Source: an uncultured Roseivirgaceae bacterium (GTDB taxonomy: Bacteria > Bacteroidota > Bacteroidia > Cytophagales > Cyclobacteriaceae). From it: 24,000 nucleotides of DNA. Of this stretch, positions 298-20,876 are shown in pieces. The stretch is taken from assembly GCA_964352205.1 (NCBI GenBank), contig CAYGQO010000002.1, forward strand, positions 594,976-618,975, in the 5' to 3' direction. Each line of letters starts with the position of its first letter. Positions within the stretch are counted from its first letter, which is position 1. The translations under genes and the position numbers were made by a program. The notes beneath the pieces are model-generated. The model worked only from the letters and a program-made list of their open reading frames with translations, had not been told where the DNA came from and ran no database searches.

Positions 298-624
298 ATG
301 AAAAAAACGAAACTCGGGGAATTTGAAGAGCTTGTTCTCATGACAGTTGTGGTACTGCAAGCAGAAGCTTATGGTGTAGAGATTAAACGCGAATTAGAAG
401 ATCGATTGAAAGAAACACTTAGTGTAGGATCAATTCAATCCGCTCTCAAGCGCATGGAAGAAAAAGGCTTCCTGACCTCTGAATTTGGAGAAGCAAGTCA
501 GAAACGTGGCGGAAAACGCAAGCGTATTTATCAAGCCACTTCTCATGCACATAAAGTGCTACAAGAAATGAAAGATGTACGCTCACAACTATGGGCGTCA
601 ATGCCATCCATCGCAAGAAGCTAA
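298..624 (+). CDS. PadR-family transcriptional regulator (short, about 108 aa)
   Basis: Winged-helix signature typical of PadR: ELVLMTVVVLQAEAYGVEIKRELE...GSIQSALKRMEEKGFLTSEFGE...KRKRIYQATSHAHKVL. It is the first gene of the permease array, the usual PadR position. Confidence 0.85.
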   Translation: MKKTKLGEFEELVLMTVVVLQAEAYGVEIKRELEDRLKETLSVGSIQSALKRMEEKGFLTSEFGEASQKRGGKRKRIYQATSHAHKVLQEMKDVRSQLWASMPSIARS

Positions 625-3236
625 TCTTGAATTATACTCCAAACGATATTCAACCACCTCGCTGGTCACTTCGGCTCCTCAAGACCTTTCTCAAGAAAGA
701 TTACTTGGAAGAGATCGAAGGCGATATGGAAGAAGTCTTTGAGGAGAACTTAGAAAATCATTCAGTAAAGAAAGCCCGGAGAATGTATAACCGGGAGGTC
801 CTGAAATTACTTCGCCCCAACCTCATTAGAGCCATTGGCGGAAATCATCAACTCAATTATATCGGTATGTTACAACACAATCTCCTTATCACATTAAGAG
901 GATTCATGAGGCATAAAACCTCGTTTCTCATCAATTTAATCGGTTTATCAACCGGTCTAGCAGCCTCACTCCTCATCTTTCTTTGGGTACAGGATGAAAG
1001 ATCAGTCGATACATTCCATGAAAAGAATGATCAGTTGTATTGGGTCAAAGCTAATTTCGCCATCAATGATGATGTCCGAACCTGGGATTATACTACTGGC
1101 CGACTAGCAGATGGTCTATTAGCGGACTTTCCTGAAGTAGAAGAATCCGTTCGAGTAGGTAATGGCTTCTTTAGACCGCGTGGTACGGTTGCTTATGAAG
1201 AAAACTTATTTGAGGTCAACGGTCTCTTTGCTGGACCAAACTTCTTCGAAGTAATGTCTTATGAATTGGTCATCGGCAACCCAAAAGAGGTAATTCAAGA
1301 CAAGTCTTCCGTAGTGATTGCAGAATGGTTGGCCGAAAGCATATTTGGAAATGCTCAGAATGCCATTGGAAAAACCCTCGCTTGGGAAGATCGATTGGTG
1401 AATAAAGAATTTGTAGTCAGTGGAATTTTCAAAGCACCCCCTAAGAACTCTTCCAGACGCTTCAATATCGTGACTAGCTATGATAATCTAATAGACAGAG
1501 ATAGCTGGGCTGACGAATGGAACGGTGGCTATGCCAGAACCTACATCGTATTGAAGAAGGGTACTGATGTAGATGATTTCAATAGAAAGATTGCCGGTTA
1601 CATGAACTTGAAGAGTGATAGCGATCGCTTTACGCTTTTCGTTCAGAAATATGCGGACAATTATCTTTATGGAGAATATACCAGTGGCATTCAAACAGGA
1701 GGAAGAATTGAGAATGTCCGACTTTTTACTTTTATCGGCATTTTCATTTTAGCCATTGCCTGCATCAACTTCATGAATCTTTCTACTGCTCAGGCATCCA
1801 AGAAACTGAAGGAAGTAGGTGTAAAAAAGGCCATAGGCGCCAATAAAACTGCCTTGATTTTTCAATTTCTAAGCGAATCCATCCTGTTAGCAACCTTCTC
1901 TCTCATACTTTCAATTGGTATTGTGTCGCTAACTCTTCAGCAGTTTAATATCATTTCAGGTAAAACTCTGGACTTATCATTACAACAATATTTACTCCCC
2001 ATTATAGGTATGGTTGTTCTTACCGGAATCTTTGCCGGTAGCTACCCTGCTTTTTACCTGTCTGGATTCAAGCCGGCAGCTATACTCAAAGGGAAACTTG
2101 AGAACCCGCGTAGCGAACAGTGGATTAGAAAAGGCTTGGTGATTGTTCAATTCAGTTTATCTGTGATTTTCATTATAGGTGTTATTGTAATCAATCAGCA
2201 AATTGAATTCACACAGAAAAAGTCCTTGGGGTACGATAGAGAGTCTATCCTCACTTTTCGTGAACGAGGCGCGAAATATCAGGACCCTCAACCTTTCTTC
2301 AATGAGTTGATGAAAATTCCGGGAGTACTAGGCACAGCAAATATGTCTGGAGATTTTCTGACCGCGGATGACAACAATAGCGGTTTCTCTTGGATAGAAG
2401 GTACCAAAGATGATGACAATCACTTATTCAAATCTCCCAAAGTGGGTTATAACTTCATTGAAACACTAGGGCTTGAAATCTTAGAAGGTCGCTCCTTCTC
2501 TAGGGATTTTAATGATGGTATTGGAAGCATTATTCTCAATGAAGCAGCTGTGGAGTATATGGAGCTTGACAATCCTATAGGCACTAAAATCGGATGGAGC
2601 GAAGATTTAACAATGGAGGTTATTGGGGTGGTTAAGAATTTCCAGTACGGATCACTCCACAATAAGATCGAGCCCCTCATCTTACAATTCAGAAAAACTG
2701 GAAAAAAGTACTTCGTTAAATTGCAGCCCGGTACTGAAGTTGAAACAATTGCCGCAGTGGAAAAGGCCTTTGAGACCATTCATCCAGGTCAGATTTTTAA
2801 AGGTAGCTTACTAGCCGATGACTATACAGATCTCTACCATTCTGAAAACAAAGTGGCGGATTTGTCCAATTACATGGCAGGTATTGCCATTATCATCTCC
2901 TGCCTCGGTCTTTTTGGCCTGGCAGCCTTTACCGCTGAAAGAAGAACTAAGGAAATCGGAATACGCAAAATTCTGGGGGCAAGCCAAAGGGTTATCATAG
3001 GCCTGCTTACCAGTAGCTTCACCAAGACTGTTCTTATCTCCATCGTTTTAGCCCTGCCAATTGGTTACTTGGCCGTTTCTAAATGGTTGGAAAACTTTGC
3101 TTATGCTGTGGAAATTCAATGGTGGGTGTTTGCATTGGCGGGTTTAGCTTGTCTAGTCATTGCCTGGATCACGGTCGGTTTCCAAACCATCAAAGCATCC
3201 ATGGTTAACCCTGCTCAGTGCTTAAGAAATGAGTAA
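591..3236 (+). CDS. Duplicated FtsX/MacB-like ABC-type permease, paralog 1 (N-terminal cytoplasmic prefix, then two periplasmic-domain/FtsX modules)
   Basis: 881-aa ORF. Prefix motif YLEEIEGDMEEVF lies at nt 702-740. Two modules each have a TM helix (LINLIGLSTGLAASLLIFLWV and VIVQFSLSVIFIIGVIVI), a large extracytoplasmic domain and an FtsX-type TM bundle (INFMNLSTAQASKKLKEVGVKKAIGA and LFGLAAFTAERRTKEIGIRKILGA). The ATG at 591 overlaps PadR by 34 nt. An alternative TTG at 627, just after the PadR stop, is equally possible. Confidence 0.85.
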   Translation: MGVNAIHRKKLILNYTPNDIQPPRWSLRLLKTFLKKDYLEEIEGDMEEVFEENLENHSVKKARRMYNREVLKLLRPNLIRAIGGNHQLNYIGMLQHNLLITLRGFMRHKTSFLINLIGLSTGLAASLLIFLWVQDERSVDTFHEKNDQLYWVKANFAINDDVRTWDYTTGRLADGLLADFPEVEESVRVGNGFFRPRGTVAYEENLFEVNGLFAGPNFFEVMSYELVIGNPKEVIQDKSSVVIAEWLAESIFGNAQNAIGKTLAWEDRLVNKEFVVSGIFKAPPKNSSRRFNIVTSYDNLIDRDSWADEWNGGYARTYIVLKKGTDVDDFNRKIAGYMNLKSDSDRFTLFVQKYADNYLYGEYTSGIQTGGRIENVRLFTFIGIFILAIACINFMNLSTAQASKKLKEVGVKKAIGANKTALIFQFLSESILLATFSLILSIGIVSLTLQQFNIISGKTLDLSLQQYLLPIIGMVVLTGIFAGSYPAFYLSGFKPAAILKGKLENPRSEQWIRKGLVIVQFSLSVIFIIGVIVINQQIEFTQKKSLGYDRESILTFRERGAKYQDPQPFFNELMKIPGVLGTANMSGDFLTADDNNSGFSWIEGTKDDDNHLFKSPKVGYNFIETLGLEILEGRSFSRDFNDGIGSIILNEAAVEYMELDNPIGTKIGWSEDLTMEVIGVVKNFQYGSLHNKIEPLILQFRKTGKKYFVKLQPGTEVETIAAVEKAFETIHPGQIFKGSLLADDYTDLYHSENKVADLSNYMAGIAIIISCLGLFGLAAFTAERRTKEIGIRKILGASQRVIIGLLTSSFTKTVLISIVLALPIGYLAVSKWLENFAYAVEIQWWVFALAGLACLVIAWITVGFQTIKASMVNPAQCLRNE

Positions 3237-5844
3237 GGAACCATTAAGCCATGTTAACAAGCCACCCAAAGGGCTTGTGAGAATACTTAGATTCTTTATC
3301 AAGGGAGAATACCTCGAAGAAATCGAAGGTGATCTGGAAGAGATTTATCATGACCTGAGGGTAACGAATAGCGCCAAGCGCGCCAATCTAAGATATCTAT
3401 TTGAATTGCTTAGGCTTTTCAAGTTCAACCTAATTAAAAGCATCATGAATAACCATAAATACAACGTGCTCGGCCTCCTAACACATAGTATTAAGCTATC
3501 CTTTAGGGGCTTCAACCGTTATAGAACATCATTTATCATCAACATTATTGGCCTGTCAACAGGAATTGCAGCTGCATTCTTCATTTACCTATGGGTCAAT
3601 GATGAGTACAGTGTAGACAGGTTTCATACGAATGGAGATCGCCTTTATCAAGTGCTACAAAATGAGGTAGAACCTGAAGGTTTAGAAACTGATTTTGGTT
3701 CACCTTTTATTTTGGCAGACTATATCAAAGAGAGGTTTCCCGAGATAGAGCATGCCGTGACTATTGGTAATGATGAAATGAGCAGAAGAGCGATTTTCAA
3801 GTCAGAAGTTGATAACAAAGAAGCCCAATCCCGTGGTATTTTTGCGAATAGTGACTTCTTTAAGGCTTTTAGCTTTACTCTTTTGTCAGGTAGTGCGGAC
3901 GAGGTTTTCAGCCCTGAAAATGCCATTGTAATCTCCGAACAGCTAGCCATCTCGCTCTTTGGCTCCATTGAAAAGGCTAATGGTCAAATACTAAAAGCAA
4001 ATCGGGATTTATACAATGGCTCATATGTAGTAACTGGTGTATTCGAAAGCGTCCCTGAAAACTCAACCCTGAAGTTCGAATATGTAGCCAATTACAAAAT
4101 GGCCCTCAAGAATGAAGAGTGGCTGCGTGAATGGAGTGCCGATGGAGCGGTAAACTTCATTTCACTAAAGCCAGGAACTGACTTAAACGATTTCAATAAA
4201 AAGTTTGAGCAAGCCATCACTGATCAGCCCTATAGAGAAGGTAGTCTCATGATGGCCTACCCTTTTGAGAAACTCTACTTAGAAGGTGAGTTTACCAACG
4301 GACAGGCTTCAGGTGGTAGAATAGCCTATGTAAAACTAATGACCATAGCAGGCATCTTCATCCTACTGCTAGCCTGCATTAATTTCATGAACCTTTCAAC
4401 AGCCCAAGCGTCAAAAAGAGTAAAGGAGATTGGCGTTAAAAAGGTTTTTGGTGTTAGACGAGATGCATTGGTTTTCCAATTGCTCACCGAATCATTCTTG
4501 ATCACCCTCCTCTCCCTTCTGGTATCCATCGGGTTAGTTACTCTTTTGCTCCCGGCTGTAAATCAAGTAATCGACAAGGAACTGTCTTTATTTGGAACAC
4601 CCTTCGCTCTCGGTTTGTGTGCTGCCATATTGATAGCAGTAACACTGCTAGCGGGAACCTATCCGGCACTTTACTTATCTAAATTTCAGTCTCGCGACTT
4701 GATACGTGGAAGACTCAAACGAGGAGCAAATGATTTATGGATCAGAAAAGGTCTAGTCATTCTTCAGTTTTCAGTTTCAACTCTTTTTGTCAGTGGTTTT
4801 CTAGTCTTAAACAATCAAATCTCCTATATCCAGAATGTAGACCTCGGCTATGACAGGGATGACTTAATCCACTTTACATTAAGAGAAAGTAAACTACGAC
4901 AACCTTTTTGGGATGAGTTGAGGAAAATCCCCAATGTGATCGCATCGACAAACCTGTATGGAGGAAGTATTGCCGATTTGAAAGGTGCTGGGGGTGGCTT
5001 CAGTTGGGGCAACCCAGTCGAAAATGAGGAAATCACCTTTAGAAGACCTCAAGTCAACTACTCTTTCTTTGAAACCCTAAATATTGATGTGCTAGAGGGC
5101 CGAGCATTTTCCAGAGATTTTCAAAATGAAGAGCAAAAGCTCATGATCAATGAAGCTGCGGCTCAACTCATCGGCATTGAAAACATTGTTGGAAACACAA
5201 TCATGGATGGCGATATAGAAAAAGAGGTGATCGGTATTGTCAAAAACTTCAAGATTCAATCGCTCTACGAACCATTACAACCAGCCATTATTCGGTTCAT
5301 TCCGAACGGAAATCACTTCATGGTCAAGATCTCCAAAGAAAACCAGGCTGAAACACTCAAGACCATTGAAACCCTTTACAACCAATTCAATTCTCAATAT
5401 CCTTTCGAGCCAAAATTTGTCAATGATGAGTACGATCAAGTATACCAAGCAGAAGGAAAAGTTGTAGCGTTGTCAGGCTATTTCACCATAGTCGCCATTC
5501 TGATTGCTTGTCTCGGGCTGTTTGGTTTAGCACTTTACAATACCGAAAGAAGGACCAAAGAGGTAGGTATCAGAAAAGTATTAGGGTCTAGTACTTTCTC
5601 CCTGATCAAACTCTTATCCTCTGATTTTATCGCTCTAGTCGCCATTTCCTTGTTGATCGCCCTACCGATGAGCTATCTCTTGGTACTTGATTGGTTAAAT
5701 GGGTTTTCGATGCACTACGCGCCAGACTTACTGTTGTATGCAACTGTGGCTTTAGCAACACTCCTTTTGTCATTGGCTACAGTTGGCTTTCAAACCTTAA
5801 AAACGTCATTAATCAACCCTGTAGAATGTCTCAGAAATGAATAA
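3229..5844 (+). CDS. Duplicated FtsX/MacB-like ABC-type permease, paralog 2
   Basis: 871-aa ORF with the same architecture: YLEEIEGDLEEIY at nt 3310-3348, INFMNLSTAQASKRVKEIGVKKVFG, and LFGLALYNTERRTKEVGIRKVLG. Its ATG overlaps the upstream stop by 8 nt (ATGAGTAA). It is the most divergent of the three paralogs. Confidence 0.85.
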   Translation: MSKEPLSHVNKPPKGLVRILRFFIKGEYLEEIEGDLEEIYHDLRVTNSAKRANLRYLFELLRLFKFNLIKSIMNNHKYNVLGLLTHSIKLSFRGFNRYRTSFIINIIGLSTGIAAAFFIYLWVNDEYSVDRFHTNGDRLYQVLQNEVEPEGLETDFGSPFILADYIKERFPEIEHAVTIGNDEMSRRAIFKSEVDNKEAQSRGIFANSDFFKAFSFTLLSGSADEVFSPENAIVISEQLAISLFGSIEKANGQILKANRDLYNGSYVVTGVFESVPENSTLKFEYVANYKMALKNEEWLREWSADGAVNFISLKPGTDLNDFNKKFEQAITDQPYREGSLMMAYPFEKLYLEGEFTNGQASGGRIAYVKLMTIAGIFILLLACINFMNLSTAQASKRVKEIGVKKVFGVRRDALVFQLLTESFLITLLSLLVSIGLVTLLLPAVNQVIDKELSLFGTPFALGLCAAILIAVTLLAGTYPALYLSKFQSRDLIRGRLKRGANDLWIRKGLVILQFSVSTLFVSGFLVLNNQISYIQNVDLGYDRDDLIHFTLRESKLRQPFWDELRKIPNVIASTNLYGGSIADLKGAGGGFSWGNPVENEEITFRRPQVNYSFFETLNIDVLEGRAFSRDFQNEEQKLMINEAAAQLIGIENIVGNTIMDGDIEKEVIGIVKNFKIQSLYEPLQPAIIRFIPNGNHFMVKISKENQAETLKTIETLYNQFNSQYPFEPKFVNDEYDQVYQAEGKVVALSGYFTIVAILIACLGLFGLALYNTERRTKEVGIRKVLGSSTFSLIKLLSSDFIALVAISLLIALPMSYLLVLDWLNGFSMHYAPDLLLYATVALATLLLSLATVGFQTLKTSLINPVECLRNE

Positions 5845-8422
5845 CCAAAACACTCCTCGCTGGTCAACAAATCTTCTTCACTTTTTGCTAAGAGATGAAT
5901 ACTTAGAAGAAATCGAGGGAGATTTAGTGGAGATTTATAAAGAAAATTTAGAAAATAATTCAGTCAAAAAAGCCCGGAGACTATACAATCGGGAGGTCAT
6001 TAAACTTATTCGCCCAAACCTTTTAAAAAGGATAAGTGGCAGTCAAAAACTTAACTATATCGGCATGTTCCAACACAACCTAATACTTACATTCAGAAGC
6101 TATATGCGCTACAAAAGCGCTTTCCTTATCAATTTGATTGGCTTAGCCTCTGGCTTGGCATGCACACTGCTAATCTACCTATGGGTCCAAAGTGAATTAC
6201 AGGTCAATCAGTTTCATGACAAAAGCGAGAGGCTGTATCGCGTAGTGGCTAATTATGACGATGCCAGCGGTATAAGTACTAATTACGCCACTCCTGCCCT
6301 GCTACCGCGAACATTAGCAGCAGATTTCCCTGAAGTTGAATACGCCACAACCGAATCTTGGACCGGAGCCTACACAGTTTCACACGAACAAACGAATATT
6401 AACGCGATAGGACAATATGCTGGAGAAGACTACTTCAACGTGTTCTCTTATGAGCTCCTTCAGGGTGACAAAAACGAGGTCTTGAAAGACAAGAGTTCCA
6501 TTGTAATCTCAGATGAATTAGCTCTAAAACTCTTTGGTACTACAGTAGATGTTGTCGGTAAAACTGTAGACTATATGCATTTCAAGTCGTTTAAGGTTTC
6601 TGGAATATTCAAAAGCCCTCCGGCATCATCTTCACGTACATTCGATTTCATAATGACCTTCGAAGAGTTTAAAGAATCTCGATCATGGATTATGAACTGG
6701 AAAAATAATGGGCCTTCTACATTTGTGGTCTTAGCAGAAGGAACTGATGTAGCCACATTCAATTCAAAAATCAAAGATGTGGTAAGGGCTAACAATGGAG
6801 AGCCTAATATGACACCCTACGCCACTTTGTATAGTGACTTATATCTCAAAGGTAAGTTCCAGAATGGCATCCCTACTGCCGGAAGAATGATCTATGTACG
6901 ATTATTCTCCATCATTGCCTTTTTCATCTTGGCGATCGCTTGCATTAATTTTATGAACCTTTCTACGGCCAGGGTATCAAGACGACTGAAAGAGATTGGC
7001 ATCAAGAAAGCTGTTGGTGCGAGCAGAAAATCATTAATATTTCAATTTCTAAGTGAGTCCATTACCATGGCATTCATTTCATTAATCTTATCTCTGATCA
7101 TTGTATGGCTGGTGTTGCCGCTGTTTAATCAAGTCACCGATAAGGCCCTAGTCCTTCAGTTTTCGACAGATTTCAGCTTGATGCTTGTGGCCATTATGTG
7201 TCTAACAGGGCTTCTCTCTGGCAGTTACCCTGCCCTATACCTATCAGGCTTTAATCCCATTAAAGTACTTAAGGGACAATCACCCACTTCTTGGCGCGAA
7301 TTGTTTTTACGCAAAGGACTTGTTGTATTCCAGTTCACCCTTTCAATAATTCTGATCGTTTCTGTATTGGTCGTTTATAAACAGATCGAGTTCACTCAAA
7401 GAGAGCATATCGGCTTTAAAAAAGACAACATTATTTACTTCGAGCCAGAAGGAGAATTGGAACTAAGGCTTCAGACATTTCTTGATGAGGTTAAACGAGT
7501 ACCAGGGGTAGAAATGGCTTCGAGCACAGCGCATACTTTTGTTGAAGGTGGCTATACCGGCAACACTTACGACATGGCTTGGGAAGGAAAAGACCCCGAA
7601 GCTGTTCTTGCCATGGAATACATGCGGGTAAACCACGATTTGATTGAATTACTCGACTTTGAAGTAATTGCTGGGAGGTCTTACGACAAAGATTTCAGCA
7701 CCGACATAGGCAGTATTATCTTCAACGAAGCTGCCATCAAGGCCATGGATTTAAAAGATCCGGTCGGACAAAGCGTCAACGTGTTTGGTAGAAAGCGCCA
7801 GGTCTTGGGAGTAGTCAAAGACTTCAATTTCAGGAGTTTCCATGAGGCCATTGGTCCAGCTTTTTTCATCCTCAACCCTTCTGACACTTGGTTAATCATG
7901 GCAAAACTTCAATCTGGAAGAGAATCAGAGACCATCAGTAAGTTACAAACGCTTTATACGGAGGTAAATCCTGGTTTCAACTTTGACTATAAGTTTTTAA
8001 GCGATGACTACGCGAAACAATACGCTGCAGAACAACGCATTGCCACCCTTTCTAGGGCCTTTGCTGTAGTGGCTATACTCATTTCTTGCTTAGGTCTTTT
8101 TGGACTGGCTGCATTTACTGCAGAGCGCAGGCTCAAAGAAATTGGCATTCGTAAGATTCTAGGCTCTAGCAACACCAATATTATTCGGTTGCTATCAGGA
8201 GACTTCACCAAAATGGTATTGATCTCCATTGTCATTGCTGTACCGATCAGTTACTTTTTGGCTTCCCAATGGCTTCAAGGCTTTGCTTATAGTGTCAGCC
8301 TACAATGGTGGTTCTTTACACTTTCAGGGGCTTTTTCACTTCTTATCGCTTGGTTAACCGTTGGTTTCCAAACGCTGAAAGCTGCATTAGTCAACCCTTC
8401 TGAATGCTTAAGAAATGAGTAG
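5837..8422 (+). CDS. Duplicated FtsX/MacB-like ABC-type permease, paralog 3
   Basis: 861-aa ORF with the same architecture: YLEEIEGDLVEIY at nt 5900-5938, INFMNLSTARVSRRLKEIGIKKAVGA, and LFGLAAFTAERRLKEIGIRKILG. Its ATG overlaps the upstream stop by 8 nt (ATGAATAA). All three paralogs end in NP.(E/Q)CLRNE. Confidence 0.85.
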   Translation: MNNQNTPRWSTNLLHFLLRDEYLEEIEGDLVEIYKENLENNSVKKARRLYNREVIKLIRPNLLKRISGSQKLNYIGMFQHNLILTFRSYMRYKSAFLINLIGLASGLACTLLIYLWVQSELQVNQFHDKSERLYRVVANYDDASGISTNYATPALLPRTLAADFPEVEYATTESWTGAYTVSHEQTNINAIGQYAGEDYFNVFSYELLQGDKNEVLKDKSSIVISDELALKLFGTTVDVVGKTVDYMHFKSFKVSGIFKSPPASSSRTFDFIMTFEEFKESRSWIMNWKNNGPSTFVVLAEGTDVATFNSKIKDVVRANNGEPNMTPYATLYSDLYLKGKFQNGIPTAGRMIYVRLFSIIAFFILAIACINFMNLSTARVSRRLKEIGIKKAVGASRKSLIFQFLSESITMAFISLILSLIIVWLVLPLFNQVTDKALVLQFSTDFSLMLVAIMCLTGLLSGSYPALYLSGFNPIKVLKGQSPTSWRELFLRKGLVVFQFTLSIILIVSVLVVYKQIEFTQREHIGFKKDNIIYFEPEGELELRLQTFLDEVKRVPGVEMASSTAHTFVEGGYTGNTYDMAWEGKDPEAVLAMEYMRVNHDLIELLDFEVIAGRSYDKDFSTDIGSIIFNEAAIKAMDLKDPVGQSVNVFGRKRQVLGVVKDFNFRSFHEAIGPAFFILNPSDTWLIMAKLQSGRESETISKLQTLYTEVNPGFNFDYKFLSDDYAKQYAAEQRIATLSRAFAVVAILISCLGLFGLAAFTAERRLKEIGIRKILGSSNTNIIRLLSGDFTKMVLISIVIAVPISYFLASQWLQGFAYSVSLQWWFFTLSGAFSLLIAWLTVGFQTLKAALVNPSECLRNE

Positions 8423-9330: not shown

Positions 9331-9630
9331 TTAGCCTCCTATACTAACCGTTGGGCAACCGAGCATAATGGTTCCACCATGCGCTGTTGCGTCTCCCATT
9401 CGGGCTGCTGGTGCTCCCTCAATTGATACCGTAGCTGAACCCTTAACAATAACGTCAGGCGGACCAACGCAAATTAGCATATCTCCCACCTTAGCTGCGG
9501 GTAAGCCGCCAATTAATACCGTTGGAGCTCCAGGTCCTACAATGGGCCCTCCAACATGAGGGATTGGTACGATGGCAGGTTCTTCCATTGGGCACTCATG
9601 AAAATCTGTAAGTCTTGCTGCTGGAGGCAT
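9331..9630 (-). CDS. PAAR domain protein (minimal, 99 aa, no N- or C-terminal extension)
   Basis: Three PAAR-type motifs at the expected spacing: PPAARLTD (res 2-9), LPAAKVGD (43-50) and APAARMGD (73-80). Gly/Pro-rich beta strands and conserved His/Cys residues (H11, C13, C54, H84, C92) are present. The gene starts 10 nt after the spike gene stop. Confidence 0.9.
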   Translation of the reverse strand: MPPAARLTDFHECPMEEPAIVPIPHVGGPIVGPGAPTVLIGGLPAAKVGDMLICVGPPDVIVKGSATVSIEGAPAARMGDATAHGGTIMLGCPTVSIGG

Positions 9631-9640
9631 AAATTCTAAA

Positions 9641-10477
9641 TTAATTGATGGACACCATTGCCCCGTTAATTACTAATTGACCTTTGGCTTTAATAGATAG
9701 GGACAAGTTACTCTCAATAGAAATTCCCGAAGGAGATAAGGTAATGGCGTTACCATTTTTGTCTTTTATCTCAATTACCTCTTGGTCGTCTATCCTGCTT
9801 AAGTCTGAAACCAAATCCATCTCGGAGGTTATTTCAGTCTCCAGTGACGAATCATGCTCAATCAATGAAGATTCTTCTTCGTTCAAGCCAATATTTATAC
9901 TCGTAATCCATTGACCATCGGCTACGTGATGGTTCACACCAGCGACAAATTGATTACCCGCAAAACGTTTGCCTAAACCTTCTAAAGTAATCACACAGCC
10001 AGCTGTCAACTGACTGCTTCCAAAAACGTGTAAATCGCCCATTATCTGAGTACCTAAACTTGGGTCCACATTCAGACTACAAGTCAAGATGTCTTGACCA
10101 TAAACGAGCTTAAGGCTTGATTTAGCCTTTTGAAGGTCTGCTAGCGCAAAGGGATGAGCTTGGTGTGTGCCTTCACAAATCACCTCATAACCAGCACCTT
10201 GTTCTGGCTTTATGTATAGATTTTGACTTGAAATGGCACCCTTAAAAATTGACTGATTATTATTATCGTAGCCGAGCTTAATTTCAATTTGTCGATTGGC
10301 TTCAAGGTCACTTGAGTCTACTAATGCCGAAACATCTTCACCCGCGAGGAATATTATTCTGGCTTGCGCCACACCGGAAACATTGTGATACACTTCTAAT
10401 TCAACTACCTGCAATGCGTAATCAAGGGGTTTTCCTTCTGAGTATACTTGAAATGTAACCATGCCTGCCTGTATCAT
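9641..10477 (-). CDS. Compact VgrG/gp5-like central spike protein (278 aa)
   Basis: The N-terminus (VTFQVYSEGKPL...VYHNVSGVAQARIIF...IEIKLGYDNNNQSIFKGAI) resembles the start of VgrG/late-control-D-type proteins. Residues about 145-197 (GDLHVFGSSQLTAGCVITLEGLGKRFAGNQFVAGVNHHVADGQWITSINIG) resemble the OB-fold segment. An acidic/Ser linker follows, then a short beta-helix-like tail (IEIKDKNGNAITLSPSGISIESNLSLSIKAKGQLVINGAMVSIN). It lies immediately upstream of a PAAR gene. The assignment is from remembered alignment patterns, not a search. Confidence 0.65.
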   Translation of the reverse strand: MIQAGMVTFQVYSEGKPLDYALQVVELEVYHNVSGVAQARIIFLAGEDVSALVDSSDLEANRQIEIKLGYDNNNQSIFKGAISSQNLYIKPEQGAGYEVICEGTHQAHPFALADLQKAKSSLKLVYGQDILTCSLNVDPSLGTQIMGDLHVFGSSQLTAGCVITLEGLGKRFAGNQFVAGVNHHVADGQWITSINIGLNEEESSLIEHDSSLETEITSEMDLVSDLSRIDDQEVIEIKDKNGNAITLSPSGISIESNLSLSIKAKGQLVINGAMVSIN

Positions 10478-10567
10478 ATAGCTAATATTTAATTCATGGA
10501 AAGTTGATGATTTTGAACTAGGAATACAATCATCATAATTCTAATCAAACTTTGAAAGTTATAGTCT

Positions 10568-10575
10568 TACCTTTG
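10568..10575 (+). promoter_or_regulatory. Bacteroidota-type -7 promoter box (TACCTTTG = TAnnTTTG) for the SDR gene
   Basis: Exact TAnnTTTG match 18 nt upstream of the ATG at 10593, with an upstream TTTG at 10551-10554. The TTTG spacing is shorter than the canonical -33/-7 spacing. Confidence 0.45.
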
Positions 10576-10592
10576 TCTTGAAACCGTGATGC

Positions 10593-12152
10593 ATGGATAG
10601 CAAACAAGCAGGCGCACCCACTGAACCACTGAGTGCCCAACAAATAGAGCAGTGTATTGAAATTCTAAATACACTCAATCAGGACACCAATCAGATTTTC
10701 GAGATCCCCAAAGAAACACGGTTAGCGCTTTTAAAAGCTGCAGGACAGCTTTCACGACCGAATAGAGATGAGTTTGCGAAACGCAAGAAGGACGCAAAAA
10801 AGGCTATAAAACGAAAACAAGCGGCCAGAGACAAACATGCTCGGAACACCACGGGTATACGCAGTGCCAGAGAAGCTACCATCTTCATTGCCCCCACCAT
10901 GTCACAACTTACAGGCAAAGAAGCGGACGAGGCACCGGTGCTTGAATCTCCAAGAAATTGCTATGTGTGTAAGGCCGTTTTCAACAAACTCCATCACTTC
11001 TATGATACCATGTGTACTGAATGCGGTGACTTTAACTATGCCAAACGCTACCAAACGGCAGACCTCACAGGACAAGTAGCCCTGGTCACAGGTTCAAGGT
11101 TGAAAATTGGATATCACATCACTTTGATGATGCTTCGTGCAGGAGCCACAGTGATTGCCACCACCCGCTTTCCAGTTGATTCGGCCCTACGCTTTGCCAA
11201 AGAGCATGACTTCAGCGATTGGAGTGACCGATTGAAAATTCACGGACTTGACCTAAGGCATATCCCGAGTGTTGAAATCTTCTGCAACTTCATTGAGCAG
11301 CAATACGATCGATTGGATGTATTAATCAACAATGCTGCACAAACCGTAAGGCGTCCTTCTGGTTTCTATAAGCACCTCATGTCCAATGAAAACAAGCCTT
11401 TCGAGCAACTCCCTCCTTTTGCCCAAACGCTATTGGCAGATCATGATGCCTGCCTGAAAGAACTTCGCGCCCTGAGTGAGGGCATGGACAAAGGGCAGAA
11501 CAAGAACTTACCAGTCACCTGGCACGGAAAACAACTGGGTATTGGACTCAGTGCTTCAGCCCAGCTTTCTCAGATCCCTTACAGCATTGATAATTCACTC
11601 ACTGCTGAAGAGGTATTCCCGGATGGAAAACTTGATGCAGATTTACAGCAAGTTGACCTGCGCAAAACAAACAGCTGGCGCTTAAAACTGGGTGAAATCC
11701 CGACCACTGAGATGCTGGAAGTTCAGTTGGTCAACTCTGTGGCTCCCTTTGTATTATGCAATCGACTCGTCAATCTGATGAAAAAAGAAAACACGGGAAT
11801 GAAGCATGTCATCAACGTTTCCGCTATGGAGGGTAAGTTCCACCAATTCCATAAAGAGGACCGTCACCCACATACCAATATGGCCAAAGCAGCTTTGAAT
11901 ATGATGACACTCACGTCCGCCTCAGACTTTGCCAAACATGGCATCTACACCAATGCCGTAGACACCGGTTGGGTAACAGATGAAGACCCTATCGAGCTTG
12001 CTAAACGAAAGGAAGAATTGCATGACTTTCAGCCACCATTAGACATTGTCGATGGTGCTGCGCGTGTATTAGATCCACTTTTCGATGGTATCAATACAGG
12101 AAAGCATTGGAATGGCAAGTTTTTGAAGGACTACAAGCCTATCTCTTGGTAA
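10593..12152 (+). CDS. SDR-family oxidoreductase with long N-terminal extension and CxxC...CxxC zinc-ribbon
   Basis: Rossmann motif [13 protein letters not shown] (res 163-175) and NNAAQ (246-250). A four-Cys ribbon CYVC...CTEC covers res 123-144 (nt 10959-11024). A basic stretch (res about 55-90) precedes it. The C-terminal SDR half is NVSAMEG...[11 protein letters not shown]. Confidence 0.75.
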
Positions 12153-12252: not shown

Positions 12253-12762
12253 TTACTTTTTCCCTTCATCAATATTTTTCACAGCCATGGCTAACACTAT
12301 TGGAGCTAGACTTAAGATAGTACTAATGGTTTGAGTGGTTGTGGCCTCTGCTAGTATGTGAAGGTTTGCTTGACCAGCAACAGAGTTCATCATCATTTGA
12401 CTCATGCTATGGACAAAAGCATCTTCCAAGGATTTACTTCCGCTTTCCTCCTTCGCCTTTATTGGGGTACTCTCCTTTTTGGCAGATTGCGCTGTAATGG
12501 CCTGTTTCCTTTCTTCAGCTTGTTTAGCAGACTGCTTTTGTGCCTCTTCTAGCTGCTTTTCAACACCAGCCCTTGCCACATTAATCTCCATCTTGTTGAG
12601 TGTAGACATAGCGCCAAGGGTATTATTGATGAGGCTTTCACAGAATGATAAAAAGACCTTGTTCTCTTGATCAATGCTTTCGGCCAAAATCACTGCGGCA
12701 GCTCTTGCATCTGCGGTTACTTGAGCAAATTCTTGTGACGGGTTAGGTACTTCTGTTGGCAT
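12253..12762 (-). CDS. Hypothetical protein; possible RebB ('killing trait', R-body) related domain interrupted by a charged coiled-coil insert
   Basis: 169-aa ORF. Res 15-30 (VTADARAAAVILAESI) and res 117-150 (VHSMSQMMMNSVAGQANLHILAEATTTQTISTIL) resemble the two conserved blocks of RebB-family proteins as I recall them (..VKVLGESPA.. and ..NAV.AQQQ.NI..QAATTQG..). Res about 62-110 are Lys/Glu/Gln/Ala-rich. Confidence 0.35.
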   Translation of the reverse strand: MPTEVPNPSQEFAQVTADARAAAVILAESIDQENKVFLSFCESLINNTLGAMSTLNKMEINVARAGVEKQLEEAQKQSAKQAEERKQAITAQSAKKESTPIKAKEESGSKSLEDAFVHSMSQMMMNSVAGQANLHILAEATTTQTISTILSLAPIVLAMAVKNIDEGKK

Positions 12763-18848: not shown

Positions 18849-20876
18849 TTAACTCCCATTCCGAACTGGAAAGCCCATTTGTGCCCAAACCAAAATACCC
18901 TCATCAATAATGGCGGCATTCTTGAACCCATTGCGCTTTAAGGTACTGAGTACTCTTTCTGATGCCGCATGCGGACAGGCACAATAAATCACAATTTGCG
19001 TACCGTCATTAGGAATATCATTGATAAACTCCTCGGGTTCTTTGTAATACGGAACCGGTACAGCTCCAGGAATATGCATTTGGCGCCAGGCCACTTCTGA
19101 TCGCGCGTCCAGGATCACCATTCGTTTGTTGTCCTTAATCGCCTGGTTCACCTGTTCTGCCGAGACGAATTTGCCGTCTTTCAATTCGAAAACAGGAGCT
19201 TCATTACCTTCATTCAATACATACTCCTCGGGTGTCGGCACAACAACACTATCGAGGTTAGGAATATCCCAGCCTGAAGCGCGGCTTCTTAAGAAAGCCG
19301 TTAAGCCATCAATCTTCTCATCACTCAAGCTGTCTTTAAAGGCGATCATTGGTGTGCCATCTCGCCCTTCCGCAATCGCATATCTTAAGAAGTGATCGGT
19401 AGCAGTGGCTAGCAGCATCGGGTTTGCCAAGGCCGGAGCTGAGATTCCTTCACCATTTTCACCGTGACAAACGGCACAGTTTTCTTCATAAACAGAAGCT
19501 CCTAACTCAATATCTCCTAACACAGGTTCTCTGGAAAGATCAATCGGTTTCTCTACTTCGGCCATTTGATAAAGCCACTCTAGAAGTAACTCGATCTCTA
19601 TGTATTCCATCGGACCACCCTGATTCTTCAAATAGCCCGCCATAGCACTATTTCCACGGCCAAATTGAATCGTATACCTCATAAAGTTATTATTCTTACT
19701 TGTCGCAAGCAGCGATTTTGAACGCAGTGAAGGCGCATTATCAGCCGCATAACCTTCACGATTATCTCCATGACAAAGTGCACAATACTTGGTATACAAT
19801 TCCTGAGCGTGTACAATAGCGACACTATCCAGGTCTGGCTTAGGCATAAGTTTTCTAGCCATCAGCCCCTGATCATATGGTTCCTCCTCAAATTCCAATT
19901 GAACACCAAAAGCATACTCCGGTAGTATTGTGATTAGGTCAGCTGATTTCGCAAAAGCTTCTTCTGGAAGTTCCTTTTCAAAGTACTGATAAGTAGAATC
20001 CAGTTGCTCTACCTCAAACCTGAGTGCAAAAACACCCTCTCCTCTTTTTGCCACAAAGTCTTTGACGGATTGGTCGCTCTCAGAAGATACTAGGTGAAGT
20101 TCATGGTTTCGATATAACTTATACCGTGCAGTAGTCTCGCTCTTGTCGATTAATTCAAAGCCCATCTTTTCAAACTCGTCATGTGAAGCATTGAGATCTT
20201 CCACTGCAATACGGATGGCGGACATGCCAATAACACCATTGGCGTGTTTATTAAACATTCTACCATAGACATAGTAAGTTCTCCAGTCACTATCGGTTCC
20301 TACATAGTCATAGCCCACACTTTCAATAAACCTTGGTAGATGTGCGGGGGGATTTGAGGCATCAAAATCAAGACTTCTACTGGTCGGATCGCCATCATCC
20401 CAAGACCAGCCCTGTGGCTGTCGCGCAGTATTGCGATAAGACTTCACTGAATCCATGGCGTAGCCATTCGTAGTCAGCGCTCTGAAGGTAGAGTCTACAG
20501 AGGAACTTGACAGGGAATACAACCTTACACCATCGTCAGATGACAGGAATCTCTGTATAAATTCCGGAACGGTGTTTTCTTCGGCCGAATCACTAATACC
20601 AAGCAATCTCAAGGAACTCATATCAGCAATGGAAATAGAAGCGGCTAAGGCGCCATCAAAAGCACCCGCTTGAGCGCCCCTCACATTGAAACCTAATGTA
20701 TCACGATAGTAACTCATAGCCGTCTCTAGATCGTTAACCAAAACTGAGGCGCTATTGATACCTGTACCCTGACCTAACAAAAAGGGCTTTTTGGGTGATT
20801 CTGACTGGCAACTAGAAAGTAAAAGACCCGATATAACAAGAGTAAGAAATAGAAGTAAGTTTCTACGAAAATTCAT
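18849..20876 (-). CDS. Lipoprotein fusion: two VOC/glyoxalase-like domains + two mono-haem cytochrome c domains + C-terminal rhodanese domain
   Basis: Lipoprotein signal LVISGLLLSSCQSE (Cys23). VOC-like blocks are at res about 40-135 and 215-330. CxxCH haem motifs are CALCH (res 365-369, nt 19770-19784) and CAVCH (res 467-471, nt 19464-19478), with downstream Met candidates M412 and M510. The rhodanese-like tail is MVILDARSEVAWRQMHIPGAVPVPY...IVIYCACPHAASERVLSTLKRNGFKNAAIIDEGILVW. Confidence 0.75.
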   Translation of the reverse strand: MNFRRNLLLFLTLVISGLLLSSCQSESPKKPFLLGQGTGINSASVLVNDLETAMSYYRDTLGFNVRGAQAGAFDGALAASISIADMSSLRLLGISDSAEENTVPEFIQRFLSSDDGVRLYSLSSSSVDSTFRALTTNGYAMDSVKSYRNTARQPQGWSWDDGDPTSRSLDFDASNPPAHLPRFIESVGYDYVGTDSDWRTYYVYGRMFNKHANGVIGMSAIRIAVEDLNASHDEFEKMGFELIDKSETTARYKLYRNHELHLVSSESDQSVKDFVAKRGEGVFALRFEVEQLDSTYQYFEKELPEEAFAKSADLITILPEYAFGVQLEFEEEPYDQGLMARKLMPKPDLDSVAIVHAQELYTKYCALCHGDNREGYAADNAPSLRSKSLLATSKNNNFMRYTIQFGRGNSAMAGYLKNQGGPMEYIEIELLLEWLYQMAEVEKPIDLSREPVLGDIELGASVYEENCAVCHGENGEGISAPALANPMLLATATDHFLRYAIAEGRDGTPMIAFKDSLSDEKIDGLTAFLRSRASGWDIPNLDSVVVPTPEEYVLNEGNEAPVFELKDGKFVSAEQVNQAIKDNKRMVILDARSEVAWRQMHIPGAVPVPYYKEPEEFINDIPNDGTQIVIYCACPHAASERVLSTLKRNGFKNAAIIDEGILVWAQMGFPVRNGS

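What the first reader, a model, noticed from the sequence alone, without database searches (positions are those of the whole stretch)
9331..10477. Stand-alone compact spike (VgrG-like, 278 aa) plus minimal PAAR cap, with no contractile machinery or cargo nearby
These two co-oriented genes sit 10 nt apart and encode the tip complex of a contractile injection system. The PAAR protein has three PAAR motifs but no extension. The spike has only a short VgrG-type N-terminus, an OB-fold-like block, an acidic linker and roughly 45 aa of beta-helix, about half the length I would expect of a VgrG or Afp8-type spike, and most of the gp27-like body appears absent. No sheath, tube, baseplate, ATPase, effector, immunity gene or adaptor lies within 9 kb on either side. 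The neighbours are a convergent lipid-synthesis gene and a divergent SDR. The pair could be a spare tip for a distant T6SSiii or eCIS locus, a remnant, or a minimal puncturing module used in an undescribed way.
Basis: partly seen in the sequence, partly recalled or inferred. Interest (0 to 1): 0.7.

Follow-up and report, generated by a model that had tools for sequence, protein, structure and literature searches.

The report
Orphan minimised injection-system spike and cap
Two adjacent genes encode a stripped-down needle tip (spike plus PAAR cap) of a phage-tail-like injection machine; selection keeps them intact although no other gene of such a machine lies nearby, their role is unknown, and similar orphan mini-spikes occur in other, unrelated bacteria.

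Summary
Two co-oriented minus-strand genes lie 10 nt apart: a 278-aa spike homologue and a 99-aa PAAR protein. No sheath, tube, baseplate, ATPase or cargo gene occurs in the 24-kb window or in ±10 kb of syntenic genomes.

The anatomy needs correcting. The spike keeps the two core beta-barrels of the gp27-like hub. An acidic linker and about 49 aa of beta-helix follow.

It is not a decaying fragment. dN/dS is 0.18 for the spike and 0.16 for PAAR, and the pair holds its chromosomal slot in at least two Cytophagales lineages (a third carries the pair on a short contig). Roseivirga relatives keep only the hub, also under selection, and have lost helix and PAAR together.

It is not unique either. 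Hub-only and hub+helix forms make up roughly a third of the best 182 spike homologues, and at least one more lineage (a high-GC contig) carries a clearly orphan pair. Other Roseivirga genomes carry a full eCIS with an 82%-identical PAAR.

My best reading is a functional minimised tip or hub module, probably acting with an eCIS encoded elsewhere. That last step is unproven. I rate it a new variant of a known kind, of moderate interest.

The parts
9641..10477 (-). Compact spike gene. 278 aa from the first ATG; 273 aa if started at Met6 (10462), as gene callers do.
   Evidence: ORF. PDB sequence hits to eCIS/T6SS spikes fall in three collinear pieces. Foldseek hits to Alg8, Cis8, Pvc8, Afp8, VgrG, gp27 and gp44. 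dN/dS 0.18 against OZ260101.1. The exact 278-aa product is on an NCBI contig of 624,647 bp.
10160..10462 (-). Hub barrel 1, the gp27-like N-terminal beta-barrel (segment A).
   Evidence: Aligns to residues 15-106 of 7aef_q and 12-111 of the Roseivirga eCIS spike. The AF2 model has strands throughout with pLDDT about 90. Translation checked.
9890..10114 (-). Conserved strand LKLVYGQDIL (segment C) plus hub barrel 2 (segment E, with motifs GLGKRFxG and HHxxxGxWxT).
   Evidence: Aligns to residues 201-217 and 294-351 of the 596-aa Roseivirga spike and to 305-365 of 7aef_q. pLDDT 80-96. Translation checked.
9791..9889 (-). Acidic, low-confidence linker (GLNEEESSLIEHDSSLETEITSEMDLVSDLSRI). It occupies the place of the missing OB/mid-barrel domain.
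   Evidence: pLDDT 43-65. Length is variable: about 60 aa in P0007 and absent in most other compact forms. It has the highest dN/dS of the gene, 0.38. Translation checked.
9644..9790 (-). Short gp5-C-like beta-helix, 49 aa, ending in the conserved tip NGAMVSIN.
   Evidence: Aligns to residues 500-549 of 7aef_q and to the first helix part plus the terminal motif of full-length spikes. It is 76% identical to the P0007 tail, while the hubs are 43% identical. Translation checked.
9331..9630 (-). PAAR cap gene, 99 aa, no extension.
   Evidence: Pfam PF05488 2.6e-24. Median 73% identity to the PAARs (mostly 99 aa) next to spikes, mostly 596-aa full-length ones, in the fetched loci. 82% identity to the PAAR inside the Roseivirga eCIS locus. 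dN/dS 0.155 and 0.085.
10478..10592 (.). Divergent intergenic region shared with the SDR gene; presumed promoter region of the pair.
   Evidence: Sequence read. The sigma-70 scan was uninformative: 6 sites found against 3.8 expected. The Bacteroidota promoter type is not covered by the tool.

Best explanation
The pair is a vertically inherited, functional, domain-minimised derivative of the cis8-cis10-type spike-PAAR gene pair of extracellular contractile injection systems (eCIS). It sits alone in a housekeeping neighbourhood of a Cytophagales genome related to Roseivirga.

Shown:
- The protein keeps the two beta-barrels of the gp27-like hub. These form the ring that adapts 3-fold to 6-fold symmetry and faces the tube.
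- It lacks both peripheral hub insertions and the OB/mid-barrel domain.
- It ends in a short triple-helix segment with the conserved PAAR-docking tip.
- The PAAR is of the canonical 99-aa eCIS type.
- All parts are under purifying selection.
- Helix and PAAR are kept or lost together.

Inferred:
- Three chains form a hub ring tethered by an acidic linker to a PAAR-capped beta-helix.
- This mini-tip, or its hub alone in Roseivirga, works in trans with an eCIS particle encoded elsewhere. It could serve as an alternative or auxiliary hub/tip, or as an assembly factor docking on the tube initiator, plug or tape measure. It would not act as a self-sufficient puncturing device.

The confidence of 0.45 is for the whole statement. 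The 'shown' part alone I put at about 0.85, and the in-trans step at about 0.35-0.4.
For: Homology and fold.

Selection:
- Spike omega is 0.18 (CI 0.11-0.28): hub 0.14, helix 0.24.
- PAAR omega is 0.155; neighbouring genes are 0.03-0.11.
- Hub-only orthologues stay intact at saturated dS with omega 0.08-0.17.

Synteny across lineages: the slot SDR / gene / CDP-OH transferase is shared.

Third lineage (P0007): the hub is only 43% identical, but the helix is 76% and the PAAR 84% identical.

Helix and PAAR co-vary: every helix-bearing compact form examined has a 99-aa PAAR directly downstream, and every hub-only form examined has none.

Link to eCIS:
- The window PAAR is 82% identical to the PAAR inside the complete Roseivirga eCIS locus (Pvc16_N, sheath, two tubes, DUF5908 plug, CIS_tube/LysM, 596-aa spike, PAAR, gp25, baseplate, CIS_TMP).
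- One compact hub, P0013, is fused to the C-terminal part of a CIS tape-measure protein (PF19268, 6.7e-65).
- In a Flavobacterium, a compact spike + PAAR follows a bona fide sheath gene.
Against: - I could not determine whether the window's own genome encodes an eCIS. All genome-wide routes were capped or failed.
- The hub is only about 30% identical to the Roseivirga eCIS spike, no closer than to spikes from other, unidentified metagenomic lineages.
- The missing insertions and OB domain are the parts that, in solved eCIS baseplates, lie towards the wedges and carry the helix rigidly.
- A 30-60-aa acidic, low-confidence linker is a poor force transmitter.
- Hub-only forms persist under selection without any tip.
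- An orphan pair sits among housekeeping genes on a high-GC contig, and another pair is flanked by opposite-strand genes on a 2.2-kb contig.
- No cargo or adaptor gene is adjacent.
- No compact spike occupied the spike position of a canonical eCIS locus among the 80 metagenome loci fetched.
Confidence: 0.45

Rival explanations
1. Autonomous function. The minimised hub, with or without its PAAR-capped helix, has been recruited to a role that needs no contractile machine, for example a stand-alone trimeric ring or envelope-associated structure, or a decoy that interferes with assembly of foreign tails or tailocins.
For: Hub-only orthologues are kept intact under purifying selection at saturated dS. 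Orphan hub-only and orphan spike+PAAR genes sit among housekeeping genes in several lineages. The hub is strongly diverged from the eCIS spike of related genomes. A flexible linker replaces a rigid OB connector. Loss of the hub insertions goes with loss of the OB domain: 24 of 26 forms lacking insertion B also lack OB, against 6 of 116 forms that keep B (counts; not phylogenetically corrected).
Against: No mechanism is suggested by any neighbour. PADLOC finds no defence family. The PAAR stays almost canonical, 73-82% identical to eCIS PAARs. The tip motif is conserved, there is a fusion to a CIS tape-measure C-terminus, and one compact spike is adjacent to a sheath gene. All of these tie the family to CIS particles.
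Confidence: 0.3
2. Decaying remnant. These are the last two genes of a lost eCIS locus, a deletion fragment on its way to pseudogenisation and without function.
For: The protein is collinear with roughly 596-aa spikes and has four internal or terminal gaps. Roseivirga lineages have gone further and lost helix + PAAR. In the NJ tree, reduced forms are scattered among full-length ones, which suggests repeated reductions. omega is somewhat higher than in neighbouring genes. The Flavobacterium compact spike has omega 0.54.
Against: omega is 0.18 with the bootstrap never reaching 1; PAAR omega is 0.085-0.155. There are no frameshifts or stops in any lineage, and no indels between the window and OZ260101.1, although dS is 0.4 to above 2. 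The gaps fall on domain boundaries and are shared by dozens of 50%-identity clusters. The helix and PAAR are the best-conserved parts.
Confidence: 0.07
3. Ordinary edge of a CIS/T6SS locus lying just outside the window.
For: None. The only point is that the window shows just 9.3 kb on one side and 13.5 kb on the other.
Against: Flanks of ±10 kb in the same contig and in syntenic genomes show PadR, MacB permeases, a DEAD helicase, glyoxalase, AraC, an NHL protein, RebB, DUF4221 and the like, and no CIS gene. The flanking genes are convergent and divergent, so the pair is its own transcription unit.
Confidence: 0.02
4. T6SS-style orphan vgrG-PAAR island that loads a specific effector.
For: Orphan VgrG-PAAR islands are common in T6SS genomes (established knowledge; reviewed in PMC10433429 and PMC7376260, both seen only as search hits and not read).
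Against: There is no effector, immunity, DUF4123, DUF1795 or DUF2169 adaptor gene nearby. The PAAR has no extension. The nearest relatives are eCIS-type spikes (AlgoCIS, tCIS), and the related Roseivirga machine is an eCIS (Pvc16_N, CIS_tube, CIS_TMP), not a T6SS.
Confidence: 0.05
5. Phage or prophage baseplate hub.
For: Foldseek matches phage hubs: Mu gp44, T4 gp27, and the 285-305-aa hubs of phages PhiTE, Pa193 and E217.
Against: No sequence match in 50,697 phage records or in IMG/VR. There are no phage genes around it. The chromosomal synteny is stable across genera. The best matches are eCIS spikes, not phage hubs.
Confidence: 0.01

Closest known systems
Alg8 spike + Alg10 PAAR of the Algoriphagus eCIS (AlgoCIS, PDB 7aef; PMC8894135), and Cis8 of the Anabaena tCIS (7b5h)
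   Same: Best sequence and fold matches. The spike-then-PAAR gene order is the same, the PAAR is of the same 99-aa type, and the same gp27-like core barrels and gp5-C-like helix tip are present.
   Different: Alg8 is 581 aa with a complete gp27-like domain, a mid beta-barrel and a long helix, and it is encoded inside a full eCIS cluster. The window protein is 278 aa. It lacks both hub insertions, the mid barrel and about half of the helix, has an acidic linker instead, and is an orphan.
Afp8 / Pvc8 spikes (PDB 6rbk, 6j0m, 9qgm)
   Same: Fold matches. These spikes are about 500-535 aa; homologues of that size class in my set lack one hub insertion (class ABC-EFGH), which shows that spike domain content varies naturally. 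I did not align Afp8 or Pvc8 themselves, so assigning them to that class rests on length alone.
   Different: They keep the OB domain and insertion B, and they sit inside complete clusters.
Orphan vgrG-PAAR islands of T6SS
   Same: A spike and cap encoded away from the core machinery and used in trans (established knowledge).
   Different: Those VgrGs are full length (600 aa or more) and come with effector, immunity or adaptor genes. Here the spike is minimised and no cargo gene is present.
Francisella VgrG (164 aa; PMC5924787)
   Same: A naturally very short spike that lacks the OB fold.
   Different: The reduction is complementary. Francisella VgrG keeps only the helix and has lost the gp27-like head, which PdpA supplies. 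The window protein keeps the head core and most of its loss is elsewhere.
Phage baseplate hubs (T4 gp27, Mu gp44, pyocin R2 hub, and the hubs of phages PhiTE, Pa193 and E217)
   Same: The hub fold. Hub and spike can be separate proteins in phages, as in the hub-only relatives seen here.
   Different: The phage hubs are 285-380 aa with the insertion domains, and they lie in a phage context. There is no sequence similarity to any phage record.

Membership tests
PAAR-repeat protein (PF05488) | PAAR_motif domain above the Pfam gathering score | tested here: met
   85.7 bits against a cutoff of 27, E 2.6e-24.
PAAR-repeat protein (PF05488) | Three PAAR-like repeats in a domain of about 95-100 aa | tested here: met
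   PAAR at residues 3-6, PAAK at 44-47, PAAR at 74-77; 99 aa with no extension. 73% median identity to the PAARs next to spikes in the fetched loci.
PAAR-repeat protein (PF05488) | Binds the blunt end of a trimeric beta-helix; Zn site | not testable with these tools
   His and Cys candidates are present (H11, C13, H25, C54, H84, C92) but were not mapped. No multimer prediction is available.
Cis8 / VgrG-type spike (gp27-gp5 fusion) | gp27-like hub domain | tested here: inconclusive
   Both core barrels are present by sequence and fold. Both insertion segments are absent. There is no Pfam Phage_GPD hit.
Cis8 / VgrG-type spike (gp27-gp5 fusion) | OB-fold / mid beta-barrel domain (PF04717 Phage_base_V) | tested here: not met
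   No PF04717 hit. Only 12-33 linker residues stand where homologues have about 130 aa.
Cis8 / VgrG-type spike (gp27-gp5 fusion) | C-terminal gp5-C-like triple beta-helix with a PAAR-docking tip | tested here: met
   49 aa align to residues 500-549 of 7aef_q and end in NGAMVSIN, against the consensus KGAxVMIN. This is about half the usual helix length.
Cis8 / VgrG-type spike (gp27-gp5 fusion) | Curated whole-protein model score (NCBIfam VgrG models) | tested here: not met
   The best hit is VgrG_rel at 17.4 bits against a cutoff of 275.
eCIS gene cluster | Sheath, tube, tube initiator, gp25-like, baseplate, tape measure and cap genes in one locus | tested here: not met
   None in the window or in ±10 kb of syntenic loci. 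Compare the complete cluster in Roseivirga, L100.
eCIS gene cluster | The same genome carries an eCIS elsewhere | not testable with these tools
   The genome-wide scans were capped. 90%-identity cluster look-ups of 7 Roseivirga eCIS proteins returned no member from the window lineage.
T6SS orphan vgrG island | Adjacent effector, immunity or adaptor genes | tested here: not met
   The neighbours are a CDP-alcohol phosphatidyltransferase and an SDR, both 85-97% conserved housekeeping genes.
Phage baseplate hub | Phage or prophage context, or similarity to phage records | tested here: not met
   No match in the phage collection or in IMG/VR. Similarity is at the fold level only.

The most novel reading that the evidence does not exclude
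Minimised spike homologues (hub-only at about 200 aa; hub+helix at 250-360 aa with a dedicated 99-aa PAAR) form a widespread, undescribed class of orphan genes. On this reading they have been recruited from eCIS spikes to a role that does not need a contractile sheath-tube machine. The optional PAAR-capped helix would be a tethered module, not a driven needle.
Probability: 0.3. Interest if true: 0.75.

Novelty: new variant of a known kind. Interest (0 to 1): 0.5.

Why it matters
If the pair works in trans with an eCIS, then extracellular injection systems, like T6SS, would use spare tips encoded elsewhere. It would also show that a spike can work without the OB domain and the hub insertions, which is useful for engineering smaller eCIS tips.

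If it works alone, it would be a case of a phage-tail hub being recruited to a new cellular role.

Either way, the graded series of domain architectures defines which spike parts are dispensable. The series runs from full 596-aa forms, through forms of about 500-540 aa (the size range of Afp8/Pvc8), to OB-less, insertion-less and hub-only forms. The orphan forms are currently annotated as hypothetical proteins with no Pfam family.

Tried and rejected
- Pfam, NCBIfam, PHROGs and PADLOC on the spike gave no family above threshold, only weak partial hits.
- The sigma-70 promoter and terminator scan was not above shuffled expectation and is not suited to Bacteroidota.
- The viral-contig scan and the phage tblastn found nothing. 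The plasmid tblastn found only two full-length VgrGs.
- The metagenome scan with compact-spike alignment A3 returned mostly full-length eCIS spikes, because the search pattern was the shared C-terminal tip. These were used as reference loci instead.
- I tried to find an eCIS in the window's lineage through the PAAR search and exact cluster look-ups. They showed a complete eCIS in other Roseivirga genomes but nothing from the window's own genome.
- Literature searches found no description of orphan or minimised eCIS spikes, nor of Roseivirga CIS.
- Pseudogene, locus-edge, prophage-hub and effector-island readings were rejected on the evidence listed under the rival explanations.
Full report
**1. 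What is in the sequence**

On the minus strand, an ORF at 9641-10477 (278 aa) is followed after 10 nt by an ORF at 9331-9630 (99 aa). Gene callers start the first ORF at Met6, position 10462, giving 273 aa.

The 99-aa protein is a clear PAAR protein. Pfam PAAR_motif scores 2.6e-24, 85.7 bits against a cutoff of 27. It carries PAAR, PAAK and PAAR repeats and no extension.

The 278-aa protein hits no Pfam family and scores only 17 bits on NCBIfam VgrG_rel. phmmer against PDB sequences, however, finds the spikes of the Algoriphagus eCIS (7aef_q, 2e-21), a T6SS VgrG (9rce_F, 1.5e-17) and the Anabaena tCIS (7b5h_AJ, 2e-16).

No other contractile-system gene is in the window. The ORFs are:
- PadR and three MacB/FtsX permeases;
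- a CDP-alcohol phosphatidyltransferase, convergent with its stop 2 nt from the PAAR stop;
- a 519-aa SDR, divergent;
- a RebB-like protein, an NHL/SGL protein and an AraC regulator;
- an NAD-binding protein, DUF4221, an LRR protein and a glyoxalase-cytochrome c-rhodanese fusion;
- an ORF without a family, and RimK.

I also took twelve proteins of a related complete eCIS and searched all six-frame ORFs of the window and of the syntenic loci. Only the spike and the PAAR were hit. GC content is uniform.

**2. Anatomy of the spike**

The PDB alignments are collinear but come in three pieces: query 6-94 = target 15-106, 153-215 = 305-365, and 228-277 = 500-549. Against the 596-aa spike of the Roseivirga eCIS there is a fourth short piece, 117-133 = 201-217.

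I aligned 182 homologues to a 594-aa reference and scored eight segments:
- A, barrel 1
- B, insertion 1
- C, a conserved strand
- D, insertion 2
- E, barrel 2
- F, the OB/mid barrel
- G and H, the two halves of the helix

The window protein is A-C-E-G-. It keeps both core barrels and the linking strand. It lacks both insertions, the entire OB/mid-barrel domain (PF04717) and the distal half of the helix. It still ends in the family's tip motif, NGAMVSIN against the consensus KGAxVMIN.

The AF2 model has mean pLDDT 82.7. It shows two all-beta domains (1-101 and 117-191, pLDDT about 90), a low-confidence acidic linker, and short strands in the tail, as expected for a helix that only forms as a trimer.

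Foldseek places the model with Alg8, Cis8, the Streptomyces CIS spike, Pvc8, Afp8 and VgrGs. It also matches phage hubs: Mu gp44, T4 gp27 and the pyocin R2 hub (viral proteins).

The AlgoCIS paper describes Alg8 as a gp27-like domain (the 3-to-6-fold adaptor), then a mid beta-barrel, then a gp5-C-like domain capped by one PAAR-like Alg10 (PMC8894135). The OB domain is what is missing.

**3. Is it a dead fragment?**

No.
- Against a MAG chromosome labelled Cyclobacteriaceae (OZ260101.1), which has the same gene order, the spike is 86% identical with no indel. dN/dS is 0.18, with a bootstrap 95% CI of 0.11-0.28: hub 0.14, helix 0.24, linker 0.38.
- The PAAR is 95% identical, with dN/dS 0.155. 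Flanking genes give 0.03-0.11.
- A third, more distant lineage (P0007, 302 aa) again has a 99-aa PAAR directly downstream. There the hub is only 43% identical, but the helix is 76% and the PAAR 84% identical; PAAR dN/dS is 0.085.

In Roseivirga MAGs and in metagenomes including Ace Lake, the slot between the SDR and the CDP-OH transferase holds a 199-204-aa orthologue. (In one of these contigs, L010, two extra genes lie between the SDR and the orthologue.) This orthologue stops right after barrel 2, and there is no PAAR gene. It is intact at saturated dS, with dN/dS 0.08-0.17.

So the hub is the constrained core. Helix and PAAR form a second unit that is kept or lost together. Long and short forms interleave in the tree (P0007 with P0008; P0001 and P0002 with P0003-5). 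Helix+PAAR was therefore probably lost at least twice.

**4. Is the architecture unique?**

No. An exhaustive HMMER search of 1.84 billion representatives gave 917 hits. The architectures of the 182 homologues on hand (the 150 best hits of that search plus hits of the word-index searches) are:

| Architecture | Count | Note |
|---|---|---|
| ABCDEFGH | 91 | full length |
| ABC-EFGH | 14 | 503-539 aa, the size range of Afp8/Pvc8 |
| ABC-E-GH | 5 | |
| A-C-EFGH | 2 | |
| A-C-E-GH | 17 | |
| A-C-E-G- | 7 | the window's class |
| A-C-E--- | 33 | hub only |

Eleven sequences with other combinations, mostly fragments, are not listed.

Loss of insertion B goes with loss of the OB domain. 24 of 26 forms without B also lack OB, against 6 of 116 forms with B (raw counts, not corrected for phylogeny). 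This fits the known role of the lower gp27 cup in holding the gp5 OB domain. That role is established knowledge from T4 gp27-gp5; the review PMC5924787 states that the OB domain contacts gp27.

Contexts of reduced forms:
- A 348-aa spike + PAAR sits between opposite-strand genes (L018).
- A roughly 356-aa spike + PAAR on a high-GC contig lies among SbmA/BacA, a histidine kinase, cytochrome bo oxidase and an MFS transporter (L033).
- A hub-only gene lies among SDR, epimerase and beta-lactamase genes (L099).
- In a Flavobacterium chromosome the order is VWA - AAA+ - sheath - 349-aa spike - PAAR, with no tube or baseplate gene (L015). That sheath is strongly homologous (E about 1e-150) to the sheaths of canonical loci.
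- One compact hub (P0013) is fused to the C-terminal part of a CIS tape-measure protein (PF19268, 6.7e-65).

**5. Link to a real machine**

In the 80 metagenome loci fetched, the canonical arrangement is sheath, about 1.9 kb of tube genes, a 596-aa spike, then a 99-aa PAAR. The window PAAR is 73% identical (median) to the PAARs in the fetched loci.

The PAAR search found the exact protein on an NCBI contig of 624,647 bp. That contig also carries the exact 278-aa spike, SDR, transferase and RebB proteins, so it is probably the source of the window.

The same search found an 82%-identical PAAR named as Roseivirga. That PAAR sits in a complete eCIS locus: Pvc16_N, a 278-aa protein, a 526-aa sheath, two gp19-type tubes, the DUF5908 plug, CIS_tube/LysM, a 596-aa spike, PAAR, gp25, two large baseplate proteins and CIS_TMP. 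The compact spike is only about 30% identical to that resident-type spike. It is therefore an old paralogue, not a recent copy.

I could not establish whether the window's own genome has an eCIS.

**6. Reading**

Shown:
- A selected, vertically inherited, domain-minimised spike-PAAR pair of eCIS ancestry, encoded alone.
- A hub core that is the constrained unit.
- A helix and PAAR that travel together.
- Membership of a broad set of reduced spike homologues, many of them orphans.

Inferred:
- A trimeric ring of six barrels tethered to a PAAR-capped helix.
- Action with an eCIS encoded elsewhere. I put this at about 0.35-0.4, against about 0.3 for an autonomous role.

Arguments against in-trans use:
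- the low identity to the resident-type spike;
- loss of the parts that contact the baseplate and stiffen the needle;
- the flexible acidic linker;
- the persistence of tip-less forms.

Arguments for in-trans use:
- the near-canonical PAAR and tip motif;
- the tape-measure fusion;
- the adjacency to a sheath gene in Flavobacterium;
- the presence of a complete eCIS in other Roseivirga genomes.

The remnant, locus-edge, prophage and effector-island readings are poorly supported.

**7. Novelty**

I found no description of OB-less, insertion-less eCIS spikes or of orphan eCIS spike-PAAR pairs in the searchable literature. The nearest precedent for a very short spike is Francisella VgrG (164 aa). 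It shows the opposite reduction: only the helix is kept, and PdpA supplies the head (PMC5924787).

I rate this a new variant of a known kind, of moderate interest. The main gaps are the unknown function and the missing whole-genome context.

Noticed in passing
window 12253-12762 (-): A 169-aa protein with a RebB ('killing trait', R-body) domain: 8.6e-06, 26.2 bits against a cutoff of 24. A 167-aa counterpart lies near the hub-only gene in L011 (3626-4129). No such gene was called in the syntenic stretch of OZ260101.1 (L003).
   Followed up: partly
window 591-8422 (+): PadR is followed by three tandem MacB/FtsX permease genes of about 870 aa each. The middle copy is only 40% identical between the window and OZ260101.1, while the copy next to it is 92% identical. 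This suggests a paralogue replacement within the array.
   Followed up: no
window 10593-12152 (+): The SDR is unusually long at 519 aa. It has an N-terminal extension of about 150 aa containing CxxC...CxxC. It is 92-97% conserved across lineages and always lies divergent from the spike or hub gene.
   Followed up: no
L015 5820-11366 (Flavobacterium CP012586.1); also L016, L019, L020: A five-gene cluster: VWA - AAA+ (AAA_5) - sheath (479 aa) - compact spike (349 aa) - PAAR (99 aa), with no tube or baseplate genes. dN/dS between L015 and L016 is 0.011 (VWA), 0.004 (AAA+), 0.20 (sheath), 0.54 (compact spike) and 0.026 (PAAR). It is either a reduced CIS-derived system or a remnant.
   Followed up: partly
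P0013 (421 aa, metagenomic protein): A compact hub (residues 1-205) is fused to the C-terminal part of a CIS tape-measure protein (PF19268 positions 291-463, E 6.7e-65). It is either a Rosetta-stone link between hub and tape measure or the product of a deletion inside an eCIS locus.
   Followed up: no
L033 1409-2904 and L018 252-1615: Orphan compact spike + 99-aa PAAR pairs on other contigs: a high-GC contig, among SbmA/BacA, a histidine kinase and cytochrome bo oxidase, and a 2.2-kb metagenome contig.
   Followed up: partly
L100 3405-20300 (Roseivirga thermotolerans / sp. UBA838 type): A complete eCIS locus in other Roseivirga genomes. It is preceded by two MacB/FtsX permease genes, the same gene type that flanks the orphan pair in the window. 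This is probably coincidence, given how many such paralogues these genomes carry.
   Followed up: no
window 18849-20876 (-): A 675-aa fusion protein with glyoxalase/dioxygenase-like domains, a cytochrome c domain and a C-terminal rhodanese domain.
   Followed up: no
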